Shown piece after piece: positions 1,434 through 2,588 of a stretch of DNA of 28,524 nucleotides. The stretch lies in the NCBI RefSeq assembly GCF_003334765.1, contig NZ_QOWT01000043.1, one strand, 5' to 3'. Under the pieces are notes generated by a model, which saw only the letters and a list, made by a program, of their open reading frames with translations, had not been told where the DNA came from and did not search any database. The stretch's first letter is position 1, and each line of letters starts with the position of its first letter. A program made the position numbers and the translations under genes. The DNA is from Escherichia coli (lineage in GTDB: Bacteria; Pseudomonadota; Gammaproteobacteria; Enterobacterales; Enterobacteriaceae).

Positions 1434-2588
1434 TCACTTTTCTCTAACCTTATCCTTTAATAGTCCCTCATTTCTCAGCCTTAAATAGCCAATCTCACAA
1501 TTGAACTTGTTAATATTATGCTGTATCATTTCAAGCTCTCTGTTGATATCAACTTTACTCATATTCTGGTTATTATATAAGTCTGATATTTTTATATTTA
1601 CAGGCATGTCATACTCAAGAAAGGTATTTTTCAGATCGTAAGCAATCGTTTTCAACTTAGATATAGTAATATACCCCCCATCATTTTCAATTACATTCAG
1701 TGTTTCCGTAAAATCATCAATCTTCTTTCCAAGCTTAGACCAGGAGTCTGCTGAATTAGGGAGGGAGACTGAACATCCAGAATAGTTCATAACCATTTCA
1801 GTAATAAAGCTATCAGGTATGATGCCCCTAAGTTTCAGTACTGTTTCCGGCCTGCCAGCATAGTTCATTACAACGGTTATTAGAGCACCCGATATGAAAG
1901 AAACGACGTTATAATATATGCGCAGTTTCTTATCTTTCTTAATTAACGTATTGTGTTCTGGTCCAGCAGTATAATTGGAGTCAATATTCGTAGGTAAACC
2001 ACTGCTAAAAGACCGAATATCTTTCGCATCATGTGATCCTGAATCATGATGTGCGGCATCAGTACTTTCTGAGTCATCACTCTTTTGTCTCTTGAGTTCA
2101 GCCAGCATATCTGAAACGATAAAAAATTTGCCAGAAAGAAGATTGTATTCGAGATCAGCCAATAATGTTAATGCATCCTCCAGCAAGGTTAATGACGAGT
2201 AGGTTTTCTCATCATCAGGCAGACTTTGCATAGCAGGAATAACATTTTTAATATACCAGATAAGAATATTCGTCCGCATCTGAGTGGCCGTAACATGAGG
2301 CCAGCATTTTTCTTTTACAAATGAATCTGCAAATTTCCATGAGGAAAGCGCCAGTCCTTCCCAGCTATATAGATTGGCTGAAATAAGACAGAACCATGCT
2401 CCTGTCTGAAGATCATATCCGTTTTCCATAAATAAAGAAAGACATCTTTTTTCCAGAGTCATCCAATATGCTCTTTCACATTTGGCCGGACTCAGATTGT
2501 TCATACTATAACTAATCCAAAGAAACTCTTTATTATTCCGGGGATCAGTAGTACTTACTGCAATATCTAGTATAAAATTTTTATCCAT
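1434..2588 (-). CDS. ImpA_N-domain protein (TssA-like N-terminus) with a predicted transmembrane helix; VasL/TagA-like T6SS accessory candidate
   Basis: 384 aa. N-terminal W..L...C..L....DLQ...W.....EGL......W...CWP pattern parallels the TssA in this window (DWRKVRKLCEVTLRNKSKDLQISCWYVESLTHLYALEGMHCGLEYL...CWP). Hydrophobic stretch VVSFISGALITVVM suggests one TM helix. AT-rich like the T6SS cluster. Confidence 0.55.
   Translation of the reverse strand: MDKNFILDIAVSTTDPRNNKEFLWISYSMNNLSPAKCERAYWMTLEKRCLSLFMENGYDLQTGAWFCLISANLYSWEGLALSSWKFADSFVKEKCWPHVTATQMRTNILIWYIKNVIPAMQSLPDDEKTYSSLTLLEDALTLLADLEYNLLSGKFFIVSDMLAELKRQKSDDSESTDAAHHDSGSHDAKDIRSFSSGLPTNIDSNYTAGPEHNTLIKKDKKLRIYYNVVSFISGALITVVMNYAGRPETVLKLRGIIPDSFITEMVMNYSGCSVSLPNSADSWSKLGKKIDDFTETLNVIENDGGYITISKLKTIAYDLKNTFLEYDMPVNIKISDLYNNQNMSKVDINRELEMIQHNINKFNCEIGYLRLRNEGLLKDKVREK

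What the first reader, a model, noticed from the sequence alone, without database searches (positions are those of the whole stretch)
1434..2588. Second ImpA_N-domain protein with a transmembrane helix, detached from the cluster by IS debris
Besides the in-operon tssA, a 384-aa ORF with a TssA-like N-terminal signature and one predicted TM segment lies about 4 kb beyond clpV, separated by the IS629-like copies. It resembles VasL/TagA-type accessory proteins. Its separation suggests IS-mediated rearrangement of an originally contiguous locus.
Basis: partly seen in the sequence, partly recalled or inferred. Interest (0 to 1): 0.5.

Follow-up and report, generated by a model that had tools for sequence, protein, structure and literature searches.

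The report
Displaced TagA-type T6SS anchor gene (aaiT)

Summary
Window 1434..2588 (minus strand) is an intact 384-aa ORF, 100% identical to E. coli 042 WP_000359994.1. By gene order it is aaiT/EC042_4582. [quoted passage not shown] That is the TagA/TsmA (class B) architecture. In sister loci the orthologue overlaps the clpV stop codon by 8 nt, or lies about 690 bp after it with no IS. In 042 a 4,009-bp block bounded by two co-oriented IS1203/IS629-like copies, one of them internally deleted, replaces about 470 bp of spacer. (1) The block is not only IS debris. It holds a collinear, decayed ghost of a Sci-1-like T6SS cluster (tssB', tssE', a small ORF', and a tagA' pseudogene that is a third ImpA_N sequence). 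It also holds a 188-aa ORF that sits downstream of tagA in sister loci. (2) Published RNA-seq shows the gene is still AggR-activated, so the separation is physical and not regulatory. (3) The in-operon TssA is the short TIGR03363 form, so this lineage pairs a short TssA with a TagA-like protein, contrary to a published generalisation. Verdict: new member of a known kind, with modest interest.

The parts
1434..2588 (-). aaiT / EC042_4582 / WP_000359994.1: intact 384-aa TagA/TsmA-class (ImpA_N + TM + VasL) T6SS accessory gene
   Evidence: the gene name is assigned from the order of genes in Table S3 of PMC6392122
2256..2549 (-). Codons 14-111: Pfam ImpA_N match. The folded N-domain in the AF2 model spans residues 1-180, window 2049-2588
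1947..2036 (-). Codons 185-214: variable, predicted disordered linker (pLDDT below 50; least conserved part of the alignment)
1851..1925 (-). Codons 222-246: the single hydrophobic, putative membrane-anchoring helix, preceded by KKDKKLR
1497..1760 (-). Codons 277-364: Pfam VasL (PF12486) match, including the family-invariant ITIS.LK motif
2653..3056 (-). Internally deleted IS1203/IS629-like copy (both ends kept, about 900 bp of interior lost). It abuts the tagA upstream region
3067..3633 (-). 188-aa ORF (aaiS/EC042_4581). Homologues (67.5% aa identity) lie three genes downstream of tagA in L002/L004, so it is translocated here
3676..4161 (-). tagA' pseudogene: N-terminal ~190 codons of a Sci-1-type TagA with several stops and frameshifts (a third ImpA_N-type sequence)
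4217..4632 (-). Frameshifted small ORF' (aaiR/EC042_4580 region), 80% aa identity to the gene immediately upstream of Sci-1 tagA (WP_001420595.1)
4608..5007 (-). Fragments of Sci-1-type tssE (4608-4793) and tssB (4806-5007), collinear with Sci-1
5351..6661 (-). Full-length but degenerate IS1203/IS629-like element (1,311 bp; frameshift and internal stop)
6804..9353 (-). tssH/clpV, last gene of the aaiA-P core operon and the ancestral upstream neighbour of tagA
15686..16762 (-). In-operon TssA, short form (358 aa; TIGR03363 at 228.6 bits, above the 160.85 cut-off; ImpA_N only, no VasJ)
642..1049 (-). 135-aa chimeric ORF (aaiU/EC042_4583): the first ~79 codons of the 207-aa gene that follows tagA in L005/L006, fused to a piece related to ORF 27898..28221

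Best explanation
The ORF encodes the TagA/TsmA-class (class B) accessory protein of the aai (Sci-2) type VI secretion system. It has a cytoplasmic ImpA_N domain, a flexible linker, one membrane-anchoring helix and a helical VasL domain. By analogy with EAEC Sci-1 TagA and V. cholerae TagA/VasL, it most likely sits in the inner membrane. [quoted passage not shown] This would improve efficiency without being essential. Ancestrally it was the terminal gene of the core operon, translationally coupled to clpV. In the 042/O104:H4 lineage a 4.0-kb mosaic replaced the short clpV-tagA spacer. The mosaic is bounded by two co-oriented IS1203/IS629-like copies and carries a decayed Sci-1-like T6SS relic plus a translocated 188-aa ORF. 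The gene stayed intact and is still transcribed under AggR control, probably by read-through from the aaiA promoter. SHOWN: the architecture, family membership, synteny, IS boundaries, intactness, purifying selection in the family, and AggR dependence (the last from the literature). INFERRED: membrane insertion and topology, interaction with the short TssA, the stopper/anchor function, and read-through as the route of expression.
For: Architecture: Pfam ImpA_N plus VasL. In the deep alignment 63/63 members carry VasL and 62/63 carry ImpA_N. The AF2 model has pLDDT 85.4, with an N-domain at 1-180, a disordered stretch at 185-214, a helix at 216-244 and a helical C-domain. The top PDB fold hit is the TssA ImpA_N domain 6hs5. 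The AFDB50 neighbours are all ImpA_N/VasL proteins. The family profile hits TssA structures 6rju, 6hs5 and 6riu. BLASTP to Sci-1 TagA matches both the N- and C-terminal domains. Membrane anchor: 87% of family members have exactly one hydrophobic segment (KD 1.6 or more), placed about 53% along the protein, and K/R residues are enriched on its N-terminal side, 3.4 against 1.7. Class definition and function of TagA come from PMC6745524, PMC7545191 and PMC6450956. Ancestral contiguity: tagA overlaps clpV by 8 nt in L006-8. It directly follows tssM or clpV in L005, L010, L011 and L013. The homology breakpoints coincide with the IS ends. Still functional and expressed: the ORF is full length compared with its homologues. 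dN/dS is 0.23-0.25, and 0.15-0.16 in the N-domain. The identical arrangement occurs in all 44 complete genomes that carry this allele. aaiT/EC042_4582 has log2FC -1.91 (p=1.5e-17) in an aggR mutant, and the intervening IS pseudogenes and aaiR/aaiS are down as well. Accessory role: aaiA-P alone suffices for AaiC secretion in HB101, and TagA of Sci-1 is likewise non-essential.
Against: No experiment addresses this protein. The ImpA_N match is weak (25.9 bits) and identity to characterised TagAs is only about 25-32% over parts of the protein. The hydrophobic segment of the 042 allele is borderline (KD 1.54) and is among the four lowest of the 62 family members that have the mid-protein segment. 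A single-pass N-in helix would place the VasL domain in the periplasm, and the papers I could read describe characterised TagAs only as membrane-associated. The cognate TssA here is the short form, and PMC7896307 reports that short TssAs do not pair with TagA-like proteins, so the partner interaction cannot simply be transferred from Sci-1. No promoter-like signal above chance was found directly upstream. AggR dependence is weaker than for the core genes (-1.9 against -2.8).
Confidence: 0.75

Rival explanations
1. The gene is an intact but functionally redundant relic. After being cut off from the operon it no longer contributes to the aai machine and is kept only by hitch-hiking on the island.
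For: [quoted passage not shown] The gene is flanked on both sides by debris. Its TM segment is among the least hydrophobic in the family. AggR dependence is weaker than for core genes. The neighbouring genes (tagA', the small ORF', the 207-aa gene) have all decayed.
Against: The ORF is full length with every family-invariant residue. It is identical in 44 complete genomes from different lineages, including O104:H4. It is transcribed and AggR-dependent. Family-wide dN/dS is about 0.24. Being dispensable for Hcp secretion is exactly what is known for bona fide TagA.
Confidence: 0.15
2. The gene is not native to the aai cluster. It was imported with the IS-bounded mosaic from another T6SS, for example the Sci-1-like ghost.
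For: The adjacent block does contain fragments of a foreign Sci-1-type cluster, including a tagA. The region is highly mosaic.
Against: The gene lies outside the IS-bounded block. Its upstream 64 nt and its coding sequence are collinear with L005 and L002, where it follows an aai-type clpV. Orthologues at 43-75% identity always follow aai-type tssM or clpV, with the same vgrG-DUF6931-PAAR-short tssA-tssJ-tssK-tssL-tssM order. Its divergence from L005 (80% nt) is similar to that of clpV (88%). The Sci-1-type tagA' is a separate, decayed sequence.
Confidence: 0.04
3. It is a second TssA proper, meaning a cap or baseplate assembly factor paralogous to the in-operon tssA, and not a membrane anchor.
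For: It shares the ImpA_N domain and gives a weak TIGR03362 TssA hit.
Against: It scores 23 bits against the 230-bit TssA cut-off, and only over the N-terminal domain. It has no VasJ or TssA C-terminal oligomerisation domain. Instead it has a hydrophobic helix and a VasL domain.
Confidence: 0.04

Closest known systems
[quoted passage not shown] 2018, as cited in PMC6730261, PMC6745524 and PMC6450956)
   Same: [quoted passage not shown] Both domains align (E=6e-7 and 1e-7). Both are accessory genes, dispensable for basal Hcp secretion, and both sit at the distal end of their cluster.
   Different: Only 25-32% identity over the aligned parts. AaiT is about 70 residues shorter (384 against 455 aa). 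It belongs to a different T6SS subclass (aai, against group 2 for Sci-1). Its partner TssA is the short TIGR03363 form, whereas Sci-1 has the long TIGR03362/VasJ form. It is untested experimentally.
V. cholerae TagA/VasL (VCA0121), class B / TsmA 'T6SS sheath membrane anchor' (PMC6745524, PMC7545191)
   Same: ImpA_N followed by a hydrophobic membrane-localising region. Encoded at the end of the large cluster, after clpV. Proposed to block excess sheath polymerisation.
   Different: Very distant in sequence: TagA-VC and TagA-EC themselves share only 19.3% identity. I did not compare AaiT with VCA0121 directly because no sequence was in hand.
Pfam VasL (PF12486) / 'VasL domain-containing protein' of Enterobacterales, as annotated in RefSeq and AFDB
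   Same: RefSeq already names this exact protein 'VasL domain-containing protein'. The AFDB50 structural neighbours are ImpA_N/VasL proteins from Tatumella, Mangrovibacter, Lelliottia, Cedecea, Hafnia and Yersinia.
   Different: The aai-type subfamily is compact (357-385 aa against about 440-480 aa) and rare. Only 159 cluster representatives (50% identity) out of 1.84 billion reach E<=1e-3, and 22 reach E<=1e-30. None was found in one-genome-per-species GTDB representatives using the conserved-peptide patterns.
TagB/TagJ stabilisers of short-TssA T6SSs (PMC7896307)
   Same: They would fill the same functional niche, which is sheath stabilisation in a system with a short TssA.
   Different: No homology. 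TagB and TagJ are ~30-kDa cytoplasmic baseplate-associated proteins. No ~30-kDa accessory gene is present in aaiA-P. The aai lineage carries a TagA-like membrane protein instead.

Membership tests
TagA / TsmA (class B ImpA_N proteins; Zoued 2017 and Schneider 2019 definition, PMC6745524) | N-terminal ImpA_N (PF06812) domain | tested here: met
   Pfam E=1.1e-5. The family profile hits TssA structures, 6rju at E=3e-7. The top Foldseek PDB hit is 6hs5, the TssA ImpA_N domain, with probability 1.00. 62/63 family members match ImpA_N.
TagA / TsmA (class B ImpA_N proteins) | Hydrophobic/transmembrane region after the ImpA_N domain | tested here: met
   One hydrophobic segment at residues 222-246, KD 1.54 (borderline), flanked by KKDKKLR. 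Modelled as helix 216-244 with pLDDT 84-93. Conserved as a single segment across the family, median KD 1.9. This is a prediction only; actual membrane insertion was not tested.
TagA / TsmA (class B ImpA_N proteins) | C-terminal VasL domain (PF12486; B1 architecture) | tested here: met
   Pfam E=2.5e-7, residues 277-364. 63/63 family members match. It aligns to the Sci-1 TagA C-terminus at E=1e-7.
TagA / TsmA (class B ImpA_N proteins) | Encoded within or adjacent to a T6SS gene cluster | tested here: met
   4.2 kb from clpV here. Directly after clpV or tssM in L005, L006-8, L010, L011 and L013.
TagA / TsmA (class B ImpA_N proteins) | Membrane localisation at the distal sheath end; interaction with TssA; deletion gives over-long, bent sheaths | not testable with these tools
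   Needs fractionation, microscopy and interaction assays. Known only for Sci-1 TagA and V. cholerae TagA.
TagA / TsmA (class B ImpA_N proteins) | Co-occurrence with a long (VasJ-type) TssA, the regularity reported in PMC7896307 | tested here: not met
   The in-operon TssA is 358 aa. It matches TIGR03363 at 228.6 bits (cut-off 160.85) and has no significant VasJ match. Sister loci have the same pairing. This is a reported correlation from 100 clusters, not a defining feature, so it does not bar membership.
TssA proper (TIGR03362 / TIGR03363 equivalogs) | Whole-protein score above the curated cut-off; TssA C-terminal oligomerisation domain | tested here: not met
   23.1 bits against a 230.1-bit cut-off, N-terminal region only, and no TIGR03363 hit.
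IS629/IS1203 (IS3 family) elements flanking the block | About 1.31 kb, terminal inverted repeats TGAAC(C/T)GCCCCGG..., orfA/orfB with a programmed frameshift, 3-4 bp target duplications | tested here: inconclusive
   Length 1,311 bp with 95.5% identity to elements annotated as IS1203. Terminal repeats are present on both copies. The transposase is frameshifted with an internal stop. No target-site duplication exists at any end or in any pairing, so these are degenerate, rearranged copies.

The most novel reading that the evidence does not exclude
The aai-type (T6SS-i4b-like) lineage is a natural hybrid. A short, TsaB/TIGR03363-type TssA is paired with a TagA-type membrane anchor and there is no TagB or TagJ. 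[quoted passage not shown] If AaiT really clamps the distal sheath end in such a system, the firing mode (immediate firing against an extended, poised sheath) is not dictated by TssA length as proposed. The compact 360-385-aa TagA subfamily would then define a third stabilisation mode, in a virulence-regulated (AggR) T6SS of a human pathogen.
Probability: 0.4. Interest if true: 0.5.

Novelty: new member of a known kind. Interest (0 to 1): 0.3.

Why it matters
The published delimitation of the aai/Sci-2 T6SS (EC042_4562-4577, aaiA-P) leaves this gene out, and the AggR-regulon literature lists aaiT only as a 'hypothetical protein'. Recognising it as the system's TagA-type anchor completes the parts list of a virulence-regulated T6SS in EAEC and in O104:H4-type strains. 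It also explains why AggR-dependent transcription extends past clpV. It provides a concrete, testable counter-example to the rule that long TssA pairs with TagA and short TssA pairs with TagB/J. The locus also documents how IS elements and recombination between co-resident T6SS islands scramble accessory genes while sparing the one that is still useful.

Tried and rejected
(1) The first AF2 run used an 11-sequence alignment and gave pLDDT 46.6, which is unusable. It was replaced by a run on a 63-sequence alignment.

(2) A PDB sequence search with the shallow profile found nothing. The deep profile did find hits.

(3) A scan of GTDB representative genomes with peptide patterns gave 70 pattern hits, but none was confirmed. 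Cross-species synteny therefore came from the look-up of encoding contigs.

(4) The promoter/terminator consensus scan of 1000-7000 found 16 promoter-like sites against 12.8±4.0 expected, so it is not informative about a private promoter.

(5) PADLOC searches of the small neighbouring ORFs gave no hits. Pfam on the 188-aa ORF gave only a non-significant Peptidase_C80 match, E=0.035.

(6) I looked for the contiguous L006-type clpV-tagA junction in complete E. coli genomes and found no match. The IS-free arrangement in complete genomes is the L005 type.

(7) I looked for target-site duplications that would indicate a simple or composite transposition and found none. A clean composite-transposon insertion was rejected.

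(8) Dudley et al. 2006 could not be read. The gene names were taken from Table S3 of PMC6392122.

(9) A literature search for EC042_4582/aaiT found no main-text mention.

Full report
**Where the window comes from.** The first 7 kb of the window are 100% identical to Escherichia coli 042 (enteroaggregative, NC_017626.1). They are at least 99.9% identical to the listed matches among the 43 other complete genomes with the same arrangement, including O104:H4 outbreak-type strains. RefSeq annotation shows that the window is the aai (Sci-2) type VI secretion locus of the pheU island. The genes tssB, tssC, aaiC/hcp, tssF, tssG, vgrG, DUF6931, PAAR, tssA, tssJ, tssK, tssL, tssM and tssH all lie on the minus strand. 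They are followed by IS debris and a 'VasL domain-containing protein', WP_000359994.1, at 1434..2588.

**Checking the observation.** Pfam finds ImpA_N at residues 14-111 (E=1.1e-5) and VasL at residues 277-364 (E=2.5e-7). The ImpA_N score is modest, but five independent lines support it:
- BLASTP to the N-terminus of the in-operon TssA gives E=2e-5.
- TIGR03362 matches the N-terminal region at E=3e-5, far below its cut-off.
- BLASTP to the Sci-1 TagA of the same genome matches both ends, at E=6e-7 and 1e-7.
- A 63-member family profile hits solved TssA structures 6rju (E=3e-7), 6hs5 and 6riu.
- An AlphaFold2 model built on that alignment (mean pLDDT 85.4) has as its best PDB match the ImpA_N-containing domain of Burkholderia TssA, 6hs5.

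In the deep alignment, 63/63 members match VasL and 62/63 match ImpA_N.

The predicted TM segment is residues 222-246. Its Kyte-Doolittle score of 1.54 is borderline. It is preceded by KKDKKLR and modelled as a confident helix at 216-244, between a disordered linker (185-214) and a helical C-domain. Across the family there is one such segment per protein at the same relative position, with median KD 1.9. K/R residues are enriched on its N-terminal side. The ORF start lies 4,215 nt from the clpV stop.

**What lies between clpV and the gene.** There are two co-oriented copies of an IS1203/IS629-group element (95.5% identical to annotated IS1203):
- a full-length but degenerate copy at 5351-6661;
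- a copy at 2653-3056 that keeps both ends but has lost about 900 bp of its interior.

Homology to an IS-free sister locus (L005, an E. marmotae replicon) runs from clpV to window 6662. It resumes at window 2652, 64 nt upstream of the ATG. The roughly 470 bp that L005 and L002 have in between are missing in 042. None of the four IS ends carries a target-site duplication, in any pairing. The structure therefore arose by recombination or deletion and not by a clean insertion.

The 2.3 kb enclosed by the IS copies is more than debris. It is collinear with the neighbouring Sci-1 cluster at 70-77% nucleotide identity:
- tssB 5' and 3' pieces (5007-4806);
- the tssE 3' end (4793-4608);
- the small gene that precedes Sci-1 tagA (4632-4217 by tblastn; the nucleotide match is 4518-3947 and runs on into the 5' part of tagA; 80% aa identity, frameshifted);
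- the first ~190 codons of a Sci-1-type tagA, riddled with stops and frameshifts (4161-3676).

This ghost of a second T6SS cluster therefore contains a third ImpA_N-type sequence. It is followed by an intact 188-aa ORF (3067..3633). Homologues of that ORF (67.5% aa identity) lie three genes downstream of tagA in L002/L004, so it has been translocated.

Downstream of the gene, the 135-aa ORF is a chimera. It joins the start of the 207-aa gene that follows tagA in L005/L006 to an unrelated piece. A short IS3-like fragment lies at about 1280-1372.

**Synteny.**
- In L006-L008, the orthologue (43% identity) starts 8 nt before the clpV stop codon, which is a translationally coupled arrangement.
- In L005 and in six complete E. 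coli replicons, it lies about 690 bp after clpV with no IS.
- In another E. coli lineage (L002/L004 and many genomes), an IS110-family element occupies the same gap.
- In more distant loci (L010, L013), a TagA-like gene directly follows tssM. In L011 it overlaps the end of an upstream gene that is cut by the contig end.

All of these clusters share the order vgrG, DUF6931, PAAR, short tssA, tssJ, tssK, tssL, tssM. The gene is therefore native to this type of cluster and was ancestrally its terminal gene. The clpV-tagA spacer is a recurrent landing site for IS elements. All 44 complete genomes with the 042 allele have the identical 7-kb arrangement, so the rearrangement predates the spread of the island.

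**Is the displaced gene still in use?** The evidence suggests it is:
- It is full length and keeps every family-invariant residue.
- dN/dS against the L002 and L005 alleles is 0.23-0.25, and 0.15-0.16 in the N-domain.
- Published RNA-seq of an aggR mutant of 042 lists, in order after clpV: two transposase pseudogenes, aaiR/EC042_4580, aaiS/EC042_4581, two more transposase pseudogenes, aaiT/EC042_4582 (log2FC -1.91, p=1.5e-17) and aaiU/EC042_4583.

That order matches the window exactly, which identifies the ORF as aaiT. Every intervening feature is also AggR-dependent, at -1.2 to -2.2 against about -2.8 for the core genes. The simplest reading is attenuated read-through from the aaiA promoter, but this is my inference. 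A consensus scan found no convincing private promoter.

The operon aaiA-P alone suffices for AaiC secretion in HB101. That fits an accessory role: Sci-1 TagA is also non-essential, and a tagA mutant keeps about 12% of wild-type activity.

**Mechanism.** The papers read define class B/TagA/TsmA proteins as ImpA_N, then a hydrophobic region, with or without VasL. They localise to the membrane, bind TssA, stop sheath polymerisation at the opposite membrane and hold the sheath extended. Loss of TagA gives over-long, bent or detached sheaths. AaiT meets all the sequence-level criteria, so I assign it this mechanism by inference. The topology is open. A single N-in helix would put the VasL domain in the periplasm, whereas the literature I could read describes TagA only as 'membrane-associated'.

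**A point of real interest.** The in-operon TssA is the short form: 358 aa, TIGR03363 at 228.6 bits, and no significant VasJ domain. Bernal et al. (PMC7896307) surveyed 100 clusters. [quoted passage not shown] They proposed that this pairing sets the firing dynamics. In the part of their dataset I could search, the aai cluster did not turn up: the only E. coli 042 entry found was Sci-1, in group 2. The aai lineage has a short TssA plus a TagA-like protein and no ~30-kDa accessory gene, so it is a counter-example. I assign aai to subclass i4b by elimination. E. coli has the subclasses i1, i2 and i4b, strain 042 has three systems, and Sci-1 is group 2. This assignment was not tested phylogenetically.

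**Novelty and verdict.** The protein class is known, and RefSeq already labels this protein with its VasL domain. What is not in the literature I could search is its identification as the aai system's TagA. The same holds for the ghost Sci-1-like cluster inside the IS-bounded block and for the short-TssA/TagA pairing. I rate it a new member of a known kind, with modest interest (0.3). There is a plausible, testable extension (probability about 0.4) that would be of moderate interest to T6SS specialists.

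Noticed in passing
window 3676-5007 (minus strand): The DNA between the two IS copies is a collinear, heavily deleted ghost of a Sci-1-like (T6SS-i2) cluster: tssB', tssE', a small ORF' and a tagA' pseudogene, at 70-77% nt identity to the intact Sci-1 cluster that lies ~28-60 kb away on the same island. RefSeq annotates only the tssB fragment and a 'frameshifted hypothetical'. The tagA' pseudogene is unannotated.
   Followed up: yes
window 3067-3633 (minus strand): An intact 188-aa ORF (aaiS/EC042_4581) with the strongest AggR dependence among the post-clpV genes (log2FC -2.19). Homologues sit downstream of tagA in sister loci, next to genes such as an AvrPphF-ORF-2 (HopF-like) protein in L005/L006. 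It has no significant Pfam, NCBIfam or PADLOC hit (Peptidase_C80 E=0.035). It is a possible effector or cargo candidate.
   Followed up: partly
window 15686-16762 with 1434-2588; also L006, L010, L013: A short TssA (TIGR03363) co-occurs with a TagA/VasL-type protein and no TagB/TagJ-sized gene, contrary to the short-TssA rule stated in PMC7896307.
   Followed up: partly
L010 6535-11074 and L013 6590-11392: In these related clusters the tagA-like gene directly follows tssM, and no clpV/tssH is called between them or within the 10 kb shown. These aai-like clusters may lack a linked ClpV.
   Followed up: no
window 642-1049 (minus strand) and 27898-28221: The 135-aa ORF aaiU is a chimera. It joins the 5' end of the 207-aa gene that follows tagA elsewhere to a segment 60-80% identical (aa) to an ORF at the other end of the window, which is also present at L009 42027-42350. 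This suggests recombination between repeated island segments.
   Followed up: partly
L009 36071-37438 (E. coli 042 Sci-1 tagA, outside the window): RefSeq/PGAP splits the intact 455-aa Sci-1 TagA (EC042_4550, experimentally characterised) into three 'incomplete' pseudogene fragments (ImpA_N, POTRA, VasL), although the ORF is uninterrupted. This is an annotation artefact.
   Followed up: partly
clpV-tagA spacer: window 2589-6803; L002/L004 8250-10000; hits H70-H75: The same intergenic spacer is occupied by an IS110-family element in another E. coli lineage and by IS1203/IS629 copies here. It is a recurrent IS target between the last two genes of the operon.
   Followed up: partly
window 1280-1372: A short stretch immediately downstream of the tagA stop resembles an IS3-element end (about 78% identity), so the gene is bracketed by IS remnants on both sides.
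   Followed up: no
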